Sequence record: OK570375
Strand: one strand, 5' to 3'
Length of the DNA stretch: 64,000 bases
From: Escherichia phage UoN_LDJ77_1
The position numbers and the translations under genes are program-made. Positions 41,067-49,212 of the stretch are shown piece after piece. Position 1 is the first letter of the stretch, and each line of letters begins with the position of its first letter. The notes beneath the pieces were generated by a model. The model ran no database searches and was not told where the DNA came from. It worked only from the letters and a program-made list of their open reading frames with translations.

Positions 41067-41096
41067 AATAAAATGGGCCTTGCGGCCCACTCCTTA
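41067..41096 (-). promoter_or_regulatory. split ribosome-binding site of denA: AAGGAG, 14-nt hairpin, AUG
   Basis: Minus strand AAGGAG-UG-GGCCGCAAGGCCC-AUUUUAUU-AUG; GNRA-type hairpin between SD and ATG 41066. Confidence 0.5.
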
Positions 41097-41597
41097 AAAA
41101 TATTTTTTAAAACTCATCATAACTTTATCATCAACATCATTATCAATCTGTGCAACAAGATAAGATGACAGTTCTACTTCTTGTGGCGCGGATTGAACAT
41201 TATCAGAATTAAGGTATTCACGAATCCAAGGATATGGATGTTTAACCGGAGCATCGGTAATTGGGCATGGAAGACCGCACTGTTTCATACGAGATACAGT
41301 TAAATAATCAATAAAGCTCCACATGCTATTTGTATTTAATCCAGGAACATCGCCGTCTTTAAATAAATGAATTGCCCAATCTTTTTCTTGGCGGTTAACT
41401 TCCATGAAAATATCAACTGCTTCTTGTTCACACTCTTGAGCAATTTTAACCCATTCATCGCCATCAGTGCCAAGTTGAAGTTGACGAATAATATATTGGG
41501 TGCCTTTAAGGTGAAGCTGCTCATCACGTGCAATGAACTTCATAATCTTGGCATTACCTTCCATGATTTCCATATTCTTGTGGAAGTTAAAGGTACC
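41094..41597 (-). CDS. nrdB: ribonucleotide reductase beta subunit NrdB, exon 2 (5' boundary approximate)
   Basis: Aligns with NrdB C-terminal half (MEGNAK...ARDEQLH iron ligand); reading frame open upstream only to 41624. Confidence 0.85.
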   Translation of the reverse strand, partial: GTFNFHKNMEIMEGNAKIMKFIARDEQLHLKGTQYIIRQLQLGTDGDEWVKIAQECEQEAVDIFMEVNRQEKDWAIHLFKDGDVPGLNTNSMWSFIDYLTVSRMKQCGLPCPITDAPVKHPYPWIREYLNSDNVQSAPQEVELSSYLVAQIDNDVDDKVMMSFKKYF

Positions 41598-41732
41598 GTT
41601 ATGTTCGATTGAGCTCGCTAATTCTCAACCCGTTCTCTTATGAACTGCTACATATTACTATGCAGACCAGACTATATCACAATCCCAGAGGGATTCTCCC
41701 CATTTCGAGTCGCTTGACCCTACGTCCGAAGA

Positions 41733-42542
41733 CTAGTCGTTGAACCTTGCTTTACAATTGTCGCCGTGCCATCGTTTATATGTTGATGGTGATAAATCTT
41801 TCTTATCACAATATGGACAATTCAATTGAATTCTATTTGGATTTAATTTACATCTGTCATTATGTTTTAGATAAAATCCAGGACCTTTACCAATGTGACC
41901 GCAGAAATCACATGTGATTTCTTTTTGTGCAGGATGGGTCCCGTTCTTAACCATTTCTAATGTTTTTGCTGATGTTCTTTTCTTATGGTCTTCTGACAAG
42001 AAATGATGTGAACCGTCATTTACCCGTTTTGATTGAGTTTCTGACTGCATTTTACCACCGCAAAATACATGAGTACCTTCTTTTATAGCTGCAATATTGC
42101 GTTCTTTAACTTTTGCAATATGCTCAGCTTGTTGAAAATTATGTATACCTAATGCAACTCTATTTAAATTAGATTTACGCTGTATTTCACCGTCTAAAAG
42201 ATGAAATGTACCATTTTCTATCTTAGATTTAATAGAGGCAATATTTTTAGCTCGTACTTCAGGGATATTAAAAATCTGGATTTCTCTAGATTTTGCGGCT
42301 TTAGAAGCTAATTCAGAAATTTCTTCAGGAGAATATTTCATTCTAAGCTTTATAGCATGACAAGCCTGGTAATCTTTTTGAGCTAAATGTATATCATAAT
42401 GTTCCTGTATAGAAAGGCACATCAAATTATCTAAATCATTATTTTCACGGTTACCGTCTTTATGATGGATTTCGTATGTTCTTCCATCAGAATCTTTAGG
42501 TATAGGTCCGTTAGCATCTATCCAAATTTTTCTATAGTTCAA
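41733..42542 (-). CDS. I-TevIII-like HNH homing endonuclease with C-terminal zinc finger
   Basis: 269-aa ORF inside intron; HNH motif EIHHKDGNRENN...QEH; CDFCGH/CPYCDK zinc finger; apparent TTG start preceded by AAGAGGA. Confidence 0.8.
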   Translation of the reverse strand: MNYRKIWIDANGPIPKDSDGRTYEIHHKDGNRENNDLDNLMCLSIQEHYDIHLAQKDYQACHAIKLRMKYSPEEISELASKAAKSREIQIFNIPEVRAKNIASIKSKIENGTFHLLDGEIQRKSNLNRVALGIHNFQQAEHIAKVKERNIAAIKEGTHVFCGGKMQSETQSKRVNDGSHHFLSEDHKKRTSAKTLEMVKNGTHPAQKEITCDFCGHIGKGPGFYLKHNDRCKLNPNRIQLNCPYCDKKDLSPSTYKRWHGDNCKARFND

Positions 42543-42569
42543 TTGTGCATCCTCTTAAAAGTATAATCA

Positions 42570-42577
42570 TATTTATA
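42570..42577 (-). promoter_or_regulatory. late promoter TATAAATA inside nrdB intron (I-TevIII-like ORF)
   Basis: Minus-strand TATAAATA 28 nt upstream of endonuclease ORF start. Confidence 0.6.
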
Positions 42578-42688
42578 TTATACTAATTAAAGGTGCAAGC
42601 AAAACCTTGGCTGCTAGTTTTCCTATAAAGGACTTTCCAGCAATTAAAGGAGTTTTCGATAAACGTTACCGTTTAAAGGCGCATTTTA

Positions 42689-43363
42689 CGCAAAAGATAC
42701 ATAAAAACGAATAGCTTCTAAGGCATTAATAACGTGTAAACAGAGGTAAAGAGACTTCATTAAAGCACGTTTAGCTTCGGCTTCTTGTTTAATAGCTCGG
42801 TTTAAACGAAAGTCGGCATCAGGAGATTCTTTAGCTAGTTCTACAAATTCTTTAGCATTTTCCCATTCACGGGTTTTAACCAAGACATCATCATAATAGC
42901 GACCGATAGATTCAGCACGTTTCATGATAGCTTCATCTAATACAATCTCATCAAATACCTTCGATGGATCAGTATAAAGATTTCGCATGATATGAGTATA
43001 TGAACGACTGTGAATAGTTTCACTAAAAGTCCATGTAGCAACCCATGTATCAAGGCTTGGGTCTGAAATTAATGACATAAGTACAGCAGACGGCGCACGG
43101 CCCTGAATGCTATCCAAAAGTGATTGATACTTCAGGTTGTTAGTAAAAATATTTTGCTGATACTGAGGAAGCTTATTAAACTGTGCAGCATCCATCATTA
43201 AGTTTACTTCTTCGGGACGCCAGAAAAATGATAAGGACTTCTCTGTAAGTTCTTCAAATACTCGATGCCGTTGAATATCATAACGCGCAATACCAAGACC
43301 TGAACCAAAAAACATAGGTTCTTTTAAAACATCAACTGGATTTGTATTAAAAACTGTGCTCAT
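42689..43363 (-). CDS. nrdB: ribonucleotide reductase beta subunit NrdB, exon 1
   Basis: 225 codons ending ...RFYVSFA then in-frame stop inside the intron. Confidence 0.85.
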
Positions 43364-43414: not shown

Positions 43415-44404
43415 TCATAATTTACAGGATGAACAATCTTCAGCTTTTGGAGTTTCTATTTCATAATCATCAGTACCAGAACCATCACGGGTATTATGAT
43501 AATAGAAATTTTTTCCGCCAAAATACCAAAAATACAAAAGGTCATCAATCATTATTGACATTGGAACCTTGCCTTTAGGGAAGATTTGGGGGTCATAATA
43601 TGTATTCGCTGAAGCTGATTGACACACCCATTTCAGCATAATAGCTACCTGCGTAAGATAAGGTTTATTACCTTTCTTAGCTAATTTCCATGTATAGTCG
43701 TAAAGGTCTATGTTATGCTCAATATTGGGCACGACCTGATTAAAGGAGCCCTCTTTTGATTCTTTAACAGAGACTGGTCCACGTGGAGGCTCGATACCGT
43801 TTGTACTGTTAGAAACTTGGGAAGATGACTCACATGGCATAAGTGCTGATAATGTGCTATTACGGATGCCAAAGAGCTTAAGGTCTTCCCGCAGCGACGA
43901 CCAGTCACAAACGTATTTTGGAGCTGCGATTTGGTCAATCTTTTTATTGTACCAGTCGATAGGTAATTCGCCTCGAGACCAACGAGTGTCTGAATAATAT
44001 TCGCAAGGTCCTTTTTCTTTGGCGAGCTTAATGGATGCTTTAATGAGTCCATACTGTAATCTCTCAAATAGTTCATGTGTTAAATCGTTAGCATCTTCAT
44101 AAGAAGCAAAGTTACTTGCCAGCCAAGCTGCATAGTTAGTAACACCTACACCGAGGTTACGACGCTTTTTAGCTTTTTCTGCTTCAGGAACCGGATATCC
44201 TTGGTAATCCAAAAGATTATCAAGAGCACGAACTTGAACTTCTGCTAATTCATTAATTTTATCTTGGTCTTGCCAGTCAAAATTATCTAGTACGAATGCA
44301 GAGAGAGTACAAAGCCCCACTTCTCCCTTGTTTTCAATAACTTTTATTGTAGTATACTCATCATCTTCGTAAAATTCATCTACAAATTCATAATCAATAT
44401 TCAT
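43415..44404 (-). CDS. nrdA: ribonucleotide reductase alpha subunit, C-terminal part (NrdA-b or exon 2)
   Basis: 329-aa ORF; NrdA homology from GEVGLCTLSAF to C-terminal CSSCKL; first ~26 residues are acidic and not NrdA-like. Confidence 0.85.
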   Translation of the reverse strand: MNIDYEFVDEFYEDDEYTTIKVIENKGEVGLCTLSAFVLDNFDWQDQDKINELAEVQVRALDNLLDYQGYPVPEAEKAKKRRNLGVGVTNYAAWLASNFASYEDANDLTHELFERLQYGLIKASIKLAKEKGPCEYYSDTRWSRGELPIDWYNKKIDQIAAPKYVCDWSSLREDLKLFGIRNSTLSALMPCESSSQVSNSTNGIEPPRGPVSVKESKEGSFNQVVPNIEHNIDLYDYTWKLAKKGNKPYLTQVAIMLKWVCQSASANTYYDPQIFPKGKVPMSIMIDDLLYFWYFGGKNFYYHNTRDGSGTDDYEIETPKAEDCSSCKL

Positions 44405-45104
44405 TTAATTCTTTTACCTTTTTTCTAGTAATTCCTAAAGTTTTAGATGCTCGATGTATTGATTGATATTCTATACCGTTTATTTTTACAGCAATTAAGT
44501 TATGGGGTTTTAATCCCTTTGGATGAGGTTTACTGACGAAAACTAAATTATCAAGTTCTGAAATCTTATCCAATTTCTTACACTTAAATCCTTTGTGATG
44601 CGACCGTTTACCTTTACAAACGGCTGACATTGCAGATGGATTTAAATTATGCTCTTTACAAAATTCGTTAAGACCTCGATGAATTTCCTCATGACCATCC
44701 GGAAATGTAAACACCCAAGATGTTTGAAGTCGAGATTTAACTTCTGGAGACATAGGAATACCTTTGTTCCAAGCTGGTTTTCCTTTATTATTTTCAGATA
44801 CAGAAATAGCCAATTTTCTTCTAAGCCACCCATGGCGTTTATTGGTGTTCTTTCGTTCAATATTATCTTCAGAATAAACACACATCATATTAGCGGCAAA
44901 TATCAATTTATGATTATTTGGATATATCTTTACTAATAATTGATGAGCTATGTAATGCTCTTCTGGTGTCAAATCTACCAGGTTTTCCTTTGTATCAGAA
45001 CCACCAATACACAGAGGTATAATATGGTGTGATTCGGTATAGCAATCTAATTTTCTATTCTTAGCTTTAGAAATAAGGTTATTGTAAATTTTAAAATAAT
45101 CCAT
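44394..45104 (-). CDS. HNH endonuclease inserted within nrdA
   Basis: 236-aa ORF; HNH motif ESHHIIPLCIGGSDTKENLV...EEHYIAHQ; strong SD (AGAGGA) upstream. Confidence 0.85.
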   Translation of the reverse strand: MDYFKIYNNLISKAKNRKLDCYTESHHIIPLCIGGSDTKENLVDLTPEEHYIAHQLLVKIYPNNHKLIFAANMMCVYSEDNIERKNTNKRHGWLRRKLAISVSENNKGKPAWNKGIPMSPEVKSRLQTSWVFTFPDGHEEIHRGLNEFCKEHNLNPSAMSAVCKGKRSHHKGFKCKKLDKISELDNLVFVSKPHPKGLKPHNLIAVKINGIEYQSIHRASKTLGITRKKVKELNEY

Positions 45105-45149
45105 AACTTTTCCTCTTGTTATGGATTATTTATTAACGGTCTGTGTACT

Positions 45150-46583
45150 TTATTTGCTTTGAATTATACCGCCAGGATTAGCTTCATAAAACTTAGCTAC
45201 ATCCGACTTCTTAATTTTGATTAAACGAGTTTGTTGGCTATTCACATCATTTGTTGGAATAGCAATTTCACAACATAAGTTACTCTGACGAATAGGTGCC
45301 TTTTCACGAATAAACGGAGTATAGTTATTCGTATTATCAATGAACTGTACATAAATCCTTGCTGTTCCTGAACGTTCAGTCATGAGCAATTCAAATAGTT
45401 CACGGGCTTTAATACGCTTTTTACGAATATTAGGGTCTTTTTCTGCTGCTTCGTATAATTCACGGAAACGGTCTTGGTCTTTAAAATAAGAATAATAAAG
45501 CTCGCCACCCATTTCATGCGGACTGAACAAAGTAATGTAATCGTTCTTTCCGAATCGTTCCATCATCAAATCATTCAGCTGAACACCATAATCCATATGA
45601 CGGATACGGTTTTCTTCTACGCCTTTGTTATTTTTCAAAACGAGAAGATTTTCAACTTCCAAATGCCAAATAGGATAATAAGCAGTAGCAGCGCCGCCAC
45701 GAATTCCGCCCTGTGAGCATGATTTAACAGCAGTCTGAAAATGTTTCCAAAAAGGAATAACCCCAGTATGGCGTACTTCACCCATGCCAATCTTAGAACC
45801 TTCGGCACGAATCATACCAACGTTAATACCAATTCCAGCGCGTTTAGAGATATATTCAACAATTGAAGCGGAAGCCTTATTGATAGACTTCAGCGAATCA
45901 CCTGCCTCAATAACAACACATGAACTAAACTGTCGAGTCGGAGTACGACAACCAGCCATAATAGGAGTTGGCAGTGAAATCTGTCGAGTAGATACTGCTT
46001 CATAAAAACGGATAACATGTTTTAATCTATCAACAGGTTCATCTTGATGCAATGCCATTCCAATAGCCATAAATGCAAACTGTGGAGTTTCATAAATTTG
46101 ACCAGTGGTTTTATCTTTAACTAGATATTTTTCTTTTAATTGCATCGCCCCAGAATAAGTAAATTCCATATCCCGTTCATGCTTAATTTTTGATTCTAAA
46201 AATGTAATTTCTTCTGCTGAATATTTTGACAATAATTCAGGGTCATATTTACCTTCATTTACACAGTAAGAAATATGGTCAATAAATGAACGTGGTTCAT
46301 ACTGCCCATAAACATGCTTACGAAGAGCGAACATTAAACAGCGTGCAGCTACATATTGATAATCAGGCTCTTCAACCGAAATAGAATTCGCAGCAGCCTT
46401 AATGACAATAGTCTGAATGTCATCAGTTGTCATTCCATCACGGAGATATGATTTAATATTTTCATATAATTCATAAGGATCTACTGATGTTCCCTCAGAT
46501 GCCCAAGATAAAACTTTAATAATTTTTTGCGGGTCAAAGCTCTGAGAAACACCACTACTTTTGATAACATTAATTAATTGCAT
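45150..46583 (-). CDS. nrdA: ribonucleotide reductase alpha subunit, N-terminal part (NrdA-a or exon 1)
   Basis: 477-aa ORF; NrdA homology through active-site motif SNLCCEIAIPTNDVN; last ~30 residues not NrdA-like. Confidence 0.85.
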   Translation of the reverse strand: MQLINVIKSSGVSQSFDPQKIIKVLSWASEGTSVDPYELYENIKSYLRDGMTTDDIQTIVIKAAANSISVEEPDYQYVAARCLMFALRKHVYGQYEPRSFIDHISYCVNEGKYDPELLSKYSAEEITFLESKIKHERDMEFTYSGAMQLKEKYLVKDKTTGQIYETPQFAFMAIGMALHQDEPVDRLKHVIRFYEAVSTRQISLPTPIMAGCRTPTRQFSSCVVIEAGDSLKSINKASASIVEYISKRAGIGINVGMIRAEGSKIGMGEVRHTGVIPFWKHFQTAVKSCSQGGIRGGAATAYYPIWHLEVENLLVLKNNKGVEENRIRHMDYGVQLNDLMMERFGKNDYITLFSPHEMGGELYYSYFKDQDRFRELYEAAEKDPNIRKKRIKARELFELLMTERSGTARIYVQFIDNTNNYTPFIREKAPIRQSNLCCEIAIPTNDVNSQQTRLIKIKKSDVAKFYEANPGGIIQSK

Positions 46584-46900
46584 AAGTCCTCAACTTGAAA
46601 ATCGTCTTTAAACAGTCGGTTAACTATATGAGCTATTATATCACCATGACACGGCTTTGGTTTACATGTGCATCCTAGCCTCATTCCACGTAAAGGCTCT
46701 AAATGTGCTTTAGTTATTTCTCCGGATTTAATTCGACGTATAAAATCTTTTTTGAATAATTCAATGGCAGCCTCCCGGCTGCCAGCATCTTTACCGACGT
46801 AATTTCCCCAAAATGTACCACGGTGAATATTAACATCAAAGTCGGATTTGTATTTATTCACTACCCGACATAGACGGCCCGCGCGGTGATAATTCGGCAT
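46574..46900 (-). CDS. DUF4326-like Cys/His protein
   Basis: 108-aa ORF; motifs HRGTFWGN and [13 protein letters not shown]. Confidence 0.6.
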
Positions 46901-47117
46901 ATTGTTTTTCCGTTAAAACAGTAATATCGTAGTAACAGTCAGAAGAAGTTTTAACTGTGGAAATTTTATTATCAAAATACTCACGAGTCATTTTATGAGT
47001 ATAGTATTTTTTACCATAAATGATAATAGGCTGTTCTGGTCCTGGAACTTCTAACTCGCTTGGGTTAGGAAGTGTAAAAAGAACAACGCCAGAAGTATCT
47101 TTAAATCGTAAAATCAT
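46854..47117 (-). CDS. hypothetical protein
   Basis: 87-aa ORF overlapping downstream ORF by 47 nt in a different frame. Confidence 0.45.
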
Positions 47118-47974
47118 ATTGCCATTTTCCCTTTAATTGCTGGATGCGATTCATAATTTTCAAGGATAAAATCTTTCGGTTTCATGTATTCAGTTAACCA
47201 GTAAAGCTGTGTTTCGGTGTCACAATTTCCAAACTCTATAGGCCAATCAATTTTAAGTTCACACAGTTCTTTAGGCTCACGACGTAAAATTTCTTTACAT
47301 TGTTCTACGTGATTCATATAGATATGAGTATTACCACCAGAAAATATCAAATCTCCTGGGATAAGATTACACATCTTAGCTACAATATGAACTAGTGCAG
47401 CATATGATGCAATATTAAATGGAAGACCGAGGAAAACATCTACTGATCGTTGATACCACTGAAGGTCAAGGTATCCATTACGAACATTAAATTGATAAAA
47501 CATATGACAAGGCGGTAATGCCATCTGCTTGAGTTCAGCTGGATTCCATGCTGAAACAATTTGACGCCTATCATTTGGCAGTTTTTTAATACGATCAATA
47601 ACTTCTATAATTTGGTCTACACCACCAAAATCACGCCACTGTTTTCCATAAATTGGACCAAGTTCACCACTATGGTATCCTAAATCTTTTGCTTGATTTT
47701 CGTAATTTTCATCCCAGACTGTTTTGCCTTGGATTAACGAATCATGCTGAATTAATCGTAAATCATTGACATTTGTGCTTCCTGATAAGAACCACAATAA
47801 CTCAGAAATGCAAGCTTTCCAGGCGAGCTTTTTAGTTGTTACTGCAGGAAAACCTTTGGTTAAATCCCAACGCAATTTAGTACCGAACAAAGCAATTGTT
47901 CCTGTGCCTGTTCGGTCATCAGTTTCATAACCATTTTCAAAAATGTCTTTAATTAAATCTTGGTATTGTTTCAT
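47114..47974 (-). CDS. td: thymidylate synthase (uninterrupted)
   Basis: Contiguous 286-aa ORF with active-site LPPCH; no intron. Confidence 0.95.
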
Positions 47975-48018: not shown

Positions 48019-48366
48019 TTAATATGGTTTAGCAACAAATTTTCTCTCAATTTCAGGTGTGAAATATAATTCTTTACCGCGTTTAGAAAAGCGACCAATA
48101 ATATGATAATTATTCTCATCAAACGTGATATTACCAATATCCATAGCTTTCAACCAAATATCGATATTTCTATCCAGCTTTATGTCAAAATTCCAATACG
48201 GAGAACTATTACCGAAAATACTGCAAGCGGATTCAGTGAAACAACTGCTATAAATCTTGTCTTTAGGAACTACTAATTGATAGACGCCTTTAATAAACTG
48301 AGGACCCTGCCATTTAGGTTGTTTCACGTCTTTTTCTAATAGAATAGGGTAATAATTAAAATTCAT
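48019..48366 (-). CDS. hypothetical protein between frd and td
   Basis: 115-aa ORF; no recognisable motif. Confidence 0.5.
   Translation of the reverse strand: MNFNYYPILLEKDVKQPKWQGPQFIKGVYQLVVPKDKIYSSCFTESACSIFGNSSPYWNFDIKLDRNIDIWLKAMDIGNITFDENNYHIIGRFSKRGKELYFTPEIERKFVAKPY

Positions 48367-48385: not shown

Positions 48386-49212
<827 letters not shown>

What the first reader, a model, noticed from the sequence alone, without database searches (positions are those of the whole stretch)
46574..47117. Two extra ORFs between td and nrdA, one DUF4326-like
As far as I recall td and nrdA are adjacent in T4. Here there is a 108-aa ORF with motifs HRGTFWGN and [13 protein letters not shown], matching the DUF4326 signature of unknown function, and an 87-aa ORF overlapping it by 47 nt in another frame. 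This looks like an accessory insertion within the nucleotide-metabolism operon.
Basis: partly seen in the sequence, partly recalled or inferred. Interest (0 to 1): 0.5.

Follow-up and report, generated by a model that had tools for sequence, protein, structure and literature searches.

The report
T4's known nrdA.1 and nrdA.2 genes
The two small genes between the thymidylate synthase and ribonucleotide reductase genes are the ordinary nrdA.2 and nrdA.1 genes that phage T4 and its close relatives carry at this spot, so they are not an insertion, although what the DUF4326 protein NrdA.1 does has never been tested.

Summary
A 108-aa ORF (46574-46900, minus strand) and an 87-aa ORF (46854-47117, minus strand) lie between td and nrdA and overlap by 47 nt. 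The 108-aa protein is a clear Pfam DUF4326 member.

T4 has nrdA.2 and nrdA.1 at exactly this place, with the same lengths and the same 47-nt overlap (94% and 96% amino-acid identity). So do T2, T6, RB51 and more than 460 other phage records.

Both genes are under purifying selection, and both are detected as RNA and protein in published T4 omics data.

Across T4-like phages, the DUF4326 gene sits just after td or within the nrd/rnlA cluster in every genus sampled that carries it. It is missing from about 85% of RB69-like (Mosigvirus) genomes, so it is dispensable there. NrdA.2 (DUF5496) is confined to Tequatrovirus and Mosigvirus.

My best guess, at about 0.3, is a small cysteine-loop enzyme acting on a ribose-linked phosphate, as predicted in the literature. 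There is no experimental evidence.

Verdict: already known, low interest.

The parts
46574..46900 (-). nrdA.1: 108-aa stand-alone DUF4326 protein, orthologue of T4 NrdA.1 (NP_049846; UniProt P32279)
   Evidence: ORF; Pfam PF14216 E=5.5e-22; 96% identical to T4 NrdA.1 and 100% to T6 NrdA.1; pN about 0 outside the overlap; AF2 model pLDDT 89
46854..47117 (-). nrdA.2: 87-aa DUF5496 protein, orthologue of T4 NrdA.2 (NP_049847; UniProt P32280)
   Evidence: ORF; Pfam PF17600 E=4.9e-58; 94% identical to T4 NrdA.2; pN/pS about 0.1 outside the overlap; only 7 cluster representatives among 1.84 billion proteins
46854..46900 (-). 47-nt out-of-frame overlap: the last 15 codons plus stop of nrdA.2 and the first 16 codons of nrdA.1
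   Evidence: Coordinates; same overlap in T4 and T6; ATG and TAA conserved in 7 Tequatroviruses; most variable stretch of the interval in both frames
46640..46675 (-). Codons for G76[11 protein letters not shown]87 of NrdA.1: the Cys-rich loop between strand 74-77 and helix 85-96, proposed as the anion-binding or active-site loop
   Evidence: C77, C79, P81, C84 and H85 are invariant in 85 homologues; secondary structure; aligns with the RapZ GCTGGKHRS loop in hhalign, though without statistical significance
46802..46822 (-). Codons for R27-G-T-F-W-G-N33 of NrdA.1, the second conserved DUF4326 motif
   Evidence: G32 and N33 invariant; R27, G28 and W31 at 90% or more
47114..47974 (-). td (thymidylate synthase, 286 aa, intron-less); its TGA stop overlaps the nrdA.2 ATG by 4 nt (ATGA, 47114-47117)
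   Evidence: ORF; alignment with T4; annotations of matching records
45150..46583 (-). nrdA, N-terminal piece (477 aa); its ATG lies 10 nt inside the 3' end of nrdA.1 (46574-46583)
   Evidence: ORF; residues 1-449 are 99% identical to T4 NrdA

Best explanation
Identity (about 0.98). The two ORFs are the resident genes nrdA.2 and nrdA.1 of T-even phages, at their normal place in the frd-td-nrdA.2-nrdA.1-nrdA-nrdB block. All are on one strand with overlapping stops and starts: 4 nt for td/nrdA.2, 47 nt for nrdA.2/nrdA.1 and 10 nt for nrdA.1/nrdA. They are therefore made from the same early transcripts as the nucleotide-precursor enzymes and are probably translationally coupled to them. The geometry is shown here; the coupling is inferred.

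Mechanism for NrdA.1 (about 0.3, inferred). It is a roughly 95-residue stand-alone DUF4326 domain, a small alpha/beta fold. A beta-strand ends in Cys77, is followed by the loop C77-T-C79-K-P-K-P-C84-H85-G-D, and then by a helix. This is the strand, phosphate-binding loop, helix layout of cysteine phosphatases, rhodaneses and the RapZ C-terminal domain. I propose that the loop, together with the R27-G-T-x-W-G-N33 motif, binds a phosphate attached to a ribose or other sugar. Candidate substrates are a nucleotide, an ADP-ribose breakdown product, or an RNA or DNA end. A cysteine (C77 or C79), with H85 in the place of the usual arginine, would then remove or transfer that phosphate. This agrees with the published but untested prediction of Iyer, Burroughs and Aravind for DUF4326.

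NrdA.1 is dispensable in RB69-like phages. It is thus a conditionally useful accessory enzyme, not part of ribonucleotide reductase.

NrdA.2 is a small protein, probably beta-rich, confined to two genera. It has no enzyme motifs and I cannot assign it a mechanism beyond co-expression with td.
For: Identity:
- The T4 record has nrdA.2 and nrdA.1 between td and nrdA with the same lengths and overlap.
- Amino-acid identity to T4 is 96% and 94%. The DNA alignment is 95% identical.
- T6, T2, RB51, KIT03 and A2 have the same arrangement.
- 461 phage records hold 80% or more of the 1.1-kb interval.

Real, expressed genes:
- nrdA.1 body: pN 0-0.005 against pS 0.02-0.05. nrdA.2 body: pN 0.006-0.024 against pS 0.02-0.20.
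- In T4 both are detected as early RNA and as protein. NrdA.2 follows the kinetics of td; NrdA.1 follows those of NrdA and NrdB (PMC9697503 supplement files 4 and 6).

Family and fold:
- Pfam DUF4326 at E=5.5e-22.
- N15, D22, G32, N33, C77, C79, P81, C84 and H85 are invariant in 85 homologues.
- AF2 model pLDDT 89, with strand 74-77, loop, helix 85-96.
- hhalign against a RapZ-C profile aligns DV...NP and (I/L)GCT...H(R/G) in register over 94 columns.
- BFVD hits show the domain in phages, giant viruses and archaeal viruses, including fusions named DUF2493 and 'NADAR domain with protein tyrosine phosphatase'.

[quoted passage not shown] SLOG-DUF4326 fusions occur in amoeba viruses (bioRxiv 10.1101/2025.06.06.658234).

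Dispensability: about 130 of 155 Mosigvirus records lack nrdA.1 at this locus. The LH01 genome has no DUF4326 by tblastn or HMM.
Against: No biochemical or genetic experiment on any DUF4326 protein turned up in the literature searches.

The canonical C-X5-R signature is absent, with His where Arg should be.

Four invariant cysteines plus a histidine fit a structural zinc site just as well. I could not inspect the model coordinates to tell the two apart.

This copy is not fused to, or next to, any ADP-ribose-related domain. Outside T4-like phages the gene has no consistent neighbour, so genomic context does not point to a substrate.
Confidence: 0.85

Rival explanations
1. NrdA.1 is not an enzyme. 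It is a small zinc-stabilised binding module. The invariant C11, C77, C79, C84 and H85 hold a metal, and the domain binds a sugar-phosphate, nucleotide or nucleic acid. It would act as a sensor or adaptor, as the RapZ C-terminal domain does, perhaps modulating td or ribonucleotide reductase or the dNTP-synthesis complex.
For: Four invariant or nearly invariant cysteines plus a histidine. The closest solved fold is RapZ-C, a ligand- and RNA-binding domain rather than a proven enzyme. The canonical catalytic arginine is lacking. In T4-like phages the gene stays next to td, nrdA or nrdB. In T4 the protein accumulates with NrdA and NrdB.
Against: In other viruses the domain is fused to enzymatic ADP-ribose-processing domains, which suits a catalytic partner better. 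Outside T4-like phages it is not linked to RNR or td. RB69-like phages keep td and nrdAB without it.
Confidence: 0.25
2. NrdA.1 is a thiol-disulfide redox helper for the neighbouring ribonucleotide reductase, using its CxC...C motif to pass reducing equivalents.
For: C77-x-C79 and C84 lie close together in sequence. The gene overlaps the start of nrdA. The protein's kinetics match NrdA and NrdB.
Against: The predicted fold gives no thioredoxin or glutaredoxin match. Homologues occur in many phages away from any RNR gene, and in T4-like phages that have td-DUF4326-rnlA with no nrdAB at this locus. Mosigviruses run the same RNR without it. From my own knowledge, T4 already encodes its own RNR reductant, NrdC.
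Confidence: 0.05
3. One reading: the two ORFs are an accessory cassette inserted into an operon in which td and nrdA are otherwise adjacent, as in T4.
For: td and nrdA are directly adjacent in Pseudotevenvirus vB_EcRAM-01. nrdA.1 is missing in most Mosigviruses. nrdA.2 is limited to two genera.
Against: T4 itself has both genes here. So do T2, T6, RB51 and hundreds of Tequatroviruses. A DUF4326 gene follows td in Dhakavirus, Moonvirus, Jiaodavirus, Lazarusvirus and Tulanevirus and in metagenomic T4-like contigs. Loss in some lineages therefore explains the pattern better than gain in this one.
Confidence: 0.02
4. One or both ORFs are non-coding artefacts, or the overlap hides a single fused or frameshifted gene.
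For: The 47-nt overlap is unusually long. Some records annotate nrdA.1 from a downstream GTG, giving an 8-nt overlap.
Against: Both frames show purifying selection and both proteins are detected in T4. In Mosigvirus, Moonvirus and Jiaodavirus the two genes are separate, with overlaps of only 1-4 nt. The A-run before the nrdA.1 ATG is not conserved in RB51, KIT03 or A2, so there is no conserved slippery site. The only in-frame start upstream of the nearly invariant C11 is the annotated ATG.
Confidence: 0.01

Closest known systems
Phage T4 genes nrdA.1 (T4p235, NP_049846, UniProt P32279) and nrdA.2 (T4p236, NP_049847, UniProt P32280)
   Same: Same position between td and nrdA, same strand, same lengths (108 and 87 aa) and the same 47-nt overlap. 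Amino-acid identity is 96% and 94%. The window's NrdA.1 is 100% identical to T6 NrdA.1.
   Different: There are four substitutions in the NrdA.1 N-terminus and five in NrdA.2, four of the latter in its C-terminal tail; nearly all fall inside the overlap. Here the td stop overlaps the nrdA.2 start, whereas T4 has a 20-nt spacer with its own Shine-Dalgarno sequence.
[quoted passage not shown] That paper could not be opened here; its existence is confirmed by a reference list.
   Same: Full-length HMM match and all invariant residues. Layout of strand, Cys loop, helix. RapZ-C is the top structural neighbour.
   Different: This copy is stand-alone, not fused to Macro, NADAR or SLOG domains. The GNP motif reads GNY in Tequatroviruses. 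No function has been shown for any family member.
RapZ C-terminal domain (E. coli RapZ residues 154-284; PDB 5O5Q, 5O5S; Pfam PF22740)
Cysteine phosphatases and rhodaneses (C-X5-R enzymes such as PTEN, Cdc25 and ArsC-type reductases)
   Same: The nucleophile-bearing loop lies between a beta-strand and a helix, and C79-X5-H85 has the same spacing as C-X5-R.

Membership tests
T4 nrdA.1 orthologue group / Pfam PF14216 (DUF4326) | Full-length match to the family HMM above the gathering score | tested here: met
   78.7 bits against a cut-off of 25, E=5.5e-22, profile positions 1-81 of 82; PHROG 464 at E=4e-49
T4 nrdA.1 orthologue group / Pfam PF14216 (DUF4326) | Conserved residue set: N15, D22, R27-G28, W31-G32-N33, R74, G76-C77-x-C79-x-P81-x-x-C84-H85-G86-D87 | tested here: met
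   All are present in the window protein and invariant or at least 90% conserved in alignments of 38 and 85 homologues
T4 nrdA.1 orthologue group / Pfam PF14216 (DUF4326) | Orthologous position: same strand, between td and nrdA, stop overlapping the nrdA start | tested here: met
   T4 and T6 annotations; 96% identity to T4
T4 nrdA.2 / Pfam PF17600 (DUF5496) | Full-length HMM match and position directly after td | tested here: met
   193.6 bits against a cut-off of 27, E=4.9e-58; 94% identity to T4 NrdA.2; Mosigvirus homologues at the same position also score above the cut-off
Rhodanese-phosphatase superfamily (Cys-loop phosphatases and sulfurtransferases) | Beta-strand ending in a cysteine, followed by an anion-binding loop and an alpha-helix | tested here: met
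   Model pLDDT 89: strand 74-77 (ending at C77), loop 78-84, helix 85-96. This is shown at secondary-structure level only; the coordinates could not be inspected.
Rhodanese-phosphatase superfamily (Cys-loop phosphatases and sulfurtransferases) | Canonical C-X5-R(S/T) signature | tested here: not met
   The loop is C77-T-C79-K-P-K-P-C84-H85-G-D. C79-X5-H85 has the right spacing but His replaces Arg in all 85 sequences
Rhodanese-phosphatase superfamily (Cys-loop phosphatases and sulfurtransferases) | Significant fold similarity to a solved member | tested here: inconclusive
Rhodanese-phosphatase superfamily (Cys-loop phosphatases and sulfurtransferases) | Cysteine-dependent phosphate or sulfur transfer activity | not testable with these tools
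   Needs enzyme assays with C77S, C79S and H85A mutants
RapZ C-terminal domain-like clade (RapZ-C / DUF488 / DUF4326) | RapZ-C is the nearest solved structure | tested here: met
RapZ C-terminal domain-like clade (RapZ-C / DUF488 / DUF4326) | Profile-profile sequence similarity | tested here: inconclusive
   hhalign of the 85-sequence DUF4326 alignment against a 105-sequence RapZ-C alignment: E=0.16, probability 0.4%, although 94 columns align with the motifs in register
ADP-ribose / NAD-derivative processing or anti-defence modules (Macro, NADAR, SLOG partners) | Fusion to, or adjacency with, an ADP-ribose-processing domain at this locus | tested here: not met
   Single-domain protein with neighbours td, nrdA.2 and nrdA. 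Such fusions are seen only in other viruses.
ADP-ribose / NAD-derivative processing or anti-defence modules (Macro, NADAR, SLOG partners) | Demonstrated effect on a host defence system | not testable with these tools
   No experimental report found. There is no PADLOC match, though none is expected for a phage gene.

The most novel reading that the evidence does not exclude
NrdA.1 could be the first experimentally tractable member of DUF4326. It would be a minimal cysteine/histidine-loop enzyme with which T-even phages remove a ribose-linked phosphate from an NAD/ADP-ribose-derived molecule or from a damaged RNA end. In that role it would counter a host immune signal or toxin. This would explain why it is kept in most T4-like genera, lost in RB69-like phages, and fused to Macro, NADAR and SLOG domains in giant viruses and jumbo phages.
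Probability: 0.2. Interest if true: 0.6.

Novelty: already known. Interest (0 to 1): 0.12.

Why it matters
As a genome-scan finding it does not matter much. The ORFs are annotated T4 genes, and their presence says nothing unusual about this phage.

The residual value is twofold. First, DUF4326 is a very widespread viral domain: 1,962 of 50,697 phage records match, and more than 7,000 protein clusters. No function has been tested for it, and T4 NrdA.1 is its most convenient model. Second, the natural presence/absence polymorphism of nrdA.1 in Mosigvirus offers ready-made isogenic-like comparisons for finding the condition in which the gene pays.

Tried and rejected
- Single-sequence AlphaFold of NrdA.1 gave an unusable model (pLDDT 44). 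I replaced it with an alignment-based model.
- A sequence search of the PDB with the DUF4326 profile, and with NrdA.2, found nothing meaningful. NCBIfam and PADLOC gave no hits.
- Foldseek against the PDB found nothing. The AFDB library was unavailable.
- The Burroughs and Aravind 2023 paper could not be opened. What I say about the 'RapZ-C-DUF488-DUF4326 clade' is from memory. Only the paper's existence was verified.
- RNA-level explanations for the overlap do not hold up. The fold of the overlap region is no better than shuffled sequence (z=+0.45). The hairpin region inside nrdA.1 reaches only z=-1.6. No terminator-like site was found, and promoter-like sites are no more frequent than in shuffles.
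- Frameshift fusion of the two ORFs is rejected. There is no conserved slippery run, and the genes are separate in other genera.
- A functional link between DUF4326 and ribonucleotide reductase is rejected as a family-wide rule. The 'NrdA-like' names on PHROG 24867 and on a 128-aa phi92-like protein are annotation carry-over from the gene name nrdA.1. Non-T4 phages show no RNR neighbour, apart from VnaP, which has an anaerobic RNR gene 1.4 kb away.
- A DUF4326-RNA ligase link was considered. rnlA is adjacent in several T4-like contigs, and an RNA ligase lies three genes away in a Pakpunavirus. This is not separable from conserved T4-like gene order and is absent in the other phages sampled.
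- NrdA.2's similarity to SH3-like repeats of a cell-wall hydrolase (P0255) rests on summed repeat scores and was not pursued.
Full report
**Observation**

The window carries, on the minus strand, frd (48386-48994), a 115-aa ORF (48019-48366), td (47114-47974), an 87-aa ORF (46854-47117), a 108-aa ORF (46574-46900) and the start of nrdA (45150-46583).

The two small ORFs overlap by 47 nt (46854-46900) in different frames. The motifs HRGTFWGN and [13 protein letters not shown] are present in the 108-aa protein.

Pfam places the 108-aa protein in DUF4326 (PF14216, E=5.5e-22, full-length). It places the 87-aa protein in DUF5496 (PF17600, E=4.9e-58).

**Identity**

The premise that td and nrdA are adjacent in T4 is wrong. 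The T4 reference record annotates nrdA.2 (264 nt) and nrdA.1 (327 nt) between td and nrdA, overlapping by 47 nt (142951-142997).

The window proteins are 94% and 96% identical to them, and the DNA aligns at 95% identity. The window's NrdA.1 is 100% identical to that of T6, whose record names the genes td.1, td, nrdA.2, nrdA.1, nrdA, mobE and nrdB.

A 1.1-kb query across the interval finds 605 phage records, 461 of them covering at least 80% of it, mostly at 95-99% identity. One record even keeps the old names 'putative 12.4 kDa protein' and 'putative 10.1 kDa protein'. These are long-known T-even ORFs.

**Synteny across T4-like phages**

| Genus or source | Gene order |
|---|---|
| Tequatrovirus | td, nrdA.2, nrdA.1, nrdA |
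| Mosigvirus | td, nrdA.2 homologue (about 36% identity, still above the DUF5496 cut-off), then nrdA.1 in only about 24 of 155 records |
| Moonvirus, Jiaodavirus, Lazarusvirus | td, an unrelated or unrecognisable 63-70-aa ORF, nrdA.1, nrdA |
| Dhakavirus | td, nrdA.1, nrdA |
| Tulanevirus | td, nrdA.1, denA, rnlA, with no nrdAB there |
| Pseudotevenvirus | td, nrdA, nrdB, DUF4326, homing endonuclease, rnlA |
| Metagenomic T4-like contigs | td, DUF4326, one ORF, rnlA; or DUF4326 directly before rnlA |

In the Mosigviruses that lack nrdA.1, an 88-nt spacer with a hairpin replaces it, and no remnant of the gene is left. The complete LH01 genome has no DUF4326 gene by tblastn or by HMM search of all ORFs.

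The DUF4326 gene is therefore an old resident of this part of the Straboviridae genome that has been lost in some lineages. It is not an insertion in this phage. NrdA.2 is narrow in distribution. It has 672 phage records, all Tequatrovirus-like (80% identity or more) or Mosigvirus-like (below 60%). It has only 7 cluster representatives among 1.84 billion proteins.

**Are they real genes?**

I compared seven Tequatroviruses.

| Region | pN | pS |
|---|---|---|
| nrdA.1 outside the overlap | 0-0.005 | 0.02-0.05 |
| nrdA.2 outside the overlap | 0.006-0.024 | 0.02-0.20 |

Both patterns indicate purifying selection.

In the T4 time-course omics study of Wolfram-Schauerte et al., both genes are listed with early RNA. 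Both are also detected as protein. NrdA.2 is in the 'middle' protein class with Td. NrdA.1 is in the 'late' class with NrdA, NrdB and RnlA (PMC9697503 supplement files 4 and 6).

**The overlap**

The ATG of nrdA.1 and the TAA of nrdA.2 are conserved in all seven Tequatroviruses. This ATG is the only in-frame start codon upstream of C11, which is conserved in more than 90% of 85 homologues. Some records nonetheless annotate a downstream GTG.

The overlap is the most variable stretch of the interval. Between the window and the RB51 type, 10-11 of its 47 nt differ, and pN is 0.13-0.27 in both frames. This suggests that both protein termini are weakly constrained.

In other genera the corresponding genes overlap by only 1-4 nt. 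There is no conserved slippery site and no RNA structure beyond chance.

The td stop and the nrdA.2 start share ATGA, and the nrdA start lies 10 nt inside nrdA.1. The four genes thus form one tightly coupled translational block. The geometry is shown here; the coupling is inferred.

**What NrdA.1 looks like**

With an 85-sequence alignment, AlphaFold gives a confident model (pLDDT 89, pTM 0.81). Its elements are strand 12-15, helices 42-59 and 64-70, strand 74-77, a loop, helix 85-96 and a short C-terminal helix.

The invariant residues are N15, D22, G32, N33, C77, C79, P81, C84 and H85. Nearly invariant are C11, R27, G28, W31, R74, G76, G86 and D87.

An hhalign comparison with a RapZ-C profile that I built is not significant (E=0.16). 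It does, however, put FDV...NP..W opposite DV...WGN, and IGCTGGKHRS opposite [13 protein letters not shown].

Against predicted viral structures the domain recurs in phages, giant viruses and archaeal viruses. It often sits inside larger proteins, among them one named DUF2493 and one named 'NADAR domain with protein tyrosine phosphatase'.

**Literature**

Eight papers mention DUF4326 and none reports an experiment.

[quoted passage not shown] A 2025 preprint notes SLOG-like anti-Avs ORF83 homologues with a C-terminal DUF4326 in amoeba viruses.

**Mechanism**

The best-supported reading, which I put at about 0.3, is as follows. NrdA.1 is a minimal cysteine-loop enzyme. The loop C77-T-C79-K-P-K-P-C84-H85, at the N-terminus of helix 85-96, and the RGTxWGN motif would bind a sugar-linked phosphate. 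A cysteine would attack it, with H85 at the position of the arginine of C-X5-R enzymes.

A redox role for ribonucleotide reductase is unlikely, for three reasons:
- The fold gives no thioredoxin-like match.
- The family is not linked to RNR outside T4-like phages.
- Mosigviruses keep nrdAB without it.

Names such as 'NrdA-like ribonucleotide reductase' on some homologues are annotation carry-over from the gene name.

For NrdA.2 I can offer only that it is a small, expressed, lineage-restricted protein co-translated with Td.

**Verdict**

The ORFs are real and the DUF4326 call is right. They are the already-known T4 genes nrdA.1 and nrdA.2 in their normal place, and the 'insertion' reading is refuted. 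Interest is low. What remains of interest is that DUF4326 is widespread and biochemically untested, and that T4 would be the obvious system in which to test it.

Noticed in passing
window 43415-46583 (-): nrdA-N 45150-46583, HNH ORF 44394-45104, nrdA-C 43415-44404: nrdA is split in two by a roughly 924-bp insert. The insert carries a 236-aa I-HmuI-like HNH endonuclease (Pfam PF22083 and PF01844). The N-terminal half is T4 NrdA residues 1-449 plus a basic 28-aa tail (QQTRLIKIKKSDVAKFYEANPGGIIQSK). The C-terminal half is an acidic 26-aa leader (MNIDYEFVDEFYEDDEYTTIKVIENK) plus T4 residues 452-754. The break lies just after the active-site SNLCCEIAIPT motif. The charge-complementary extensions might re-associate the halves, as in the Aeh1 'genes in pieces' RNR (that comparison is from memory). 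34 phage records share the insert, including one Mosigvirus. Whether this is an intron or a split gene is not resolved, because the Rfam scan also missed the known nrdB intron.
   Followed up: partly
window 48019-48366 (-): A 115-aa ORF lies between frd and td and is absent from T4, where frd and td abut. It is 98% identical to T6 td.1 and has no Pfam family. This, not nrdA.1 or nrdA.2, is the ORF in this operon that is extra relative to T4.
   Followed up: partly
window 41094-43363 (-) and 47114-47974 (-): The mobile-element content differs from T4. td has no intron (single 286-aa ORF). nrdB appears interrupted (ORFs 42686-43363 and 41094-41573) by a segment carrying a full-length 269-aa HNH ORF (41733-42542), whereas T4's I-TevIII is annotated as truncated and defective. 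No mobE lies between nrdA and nrdB.
   Followed up: no
window 46854-46900: The 47-nt overlap is the most variable part of the td-nrdA interval among seven Tequatroviruses, with up to 11 of 47 nt differing. The adjoining nrdA.1 body is nearly invariant even at synonymous sites (pS 0.02-0.05). I could not decide between relaxed constraint on the termini and a recombination patch.
   Followed up: partly
window 46765-46784 (-): A perfect 8-bp GC-rich hairpin (UGGCAGCC-GGGA-GGCUGCCA) lies inside the nrdA.1 coding sequence of an AT-rich genome and is identical in T4. No U-tract follows it, and the local fold is not significantly better than shuffled sequence (z=-1.6).
   Followed up: partly
L006:2756-2842 (Mosigvirus LH01) compared with L010:1816-2121 (Mosigvirus moha): Within one genus, nrdA.1 is either present (about 24 records) or cleanly replaced by an 88-nt spacer (about 130 records). 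The spacer holds a terminator-like hairpin (ACGGGATAAATACTATCCCGTTT) and a separate nrdA ribosome-binding site. LH01 has no DUF4326 gene anywhere in its genome.
   Followed up: yes
window 47095-47200 compared with L001 (T4): The 3' end of td exists as two alleles among Tequatroviruses. In the window type the td stop overlaps the nrdA.2 ATG. In the T4 type the last roughly 80 nt of td differ and a 20-nt spacer with GAGGA precedes nrdA.2. About half of the sampled close matches align only from query position 82, which lies just before the nrdA.2 start, so their td 3' ends are of the other type.
   Followed up: no
L005:3881-4267 (Salmonella phage UAB_1); PHROG 24867: Small DUF4326-like proteins in phi92/rV5-type phages, and a whole PHROG family, are labelled 'ribonucleoside-diphosphate reductase alpha subunit' or 'NrdA-like'. 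This appears to be a name carried over from 'nrdA.1' and not a sign of RNR homology.
   Followed up: partly
P0255 (1172 aa, metagenome) compared with window 46854-47117: NrdA.2 residues 21-69 weakly match eight tandem SH3-like repeats of a putative cell-wall hydrolase (E=1.6e-4, summed over the repeats). This hints at a small beta-barrel fold for NrdA.2, which I did not verify.
   Followed up: no
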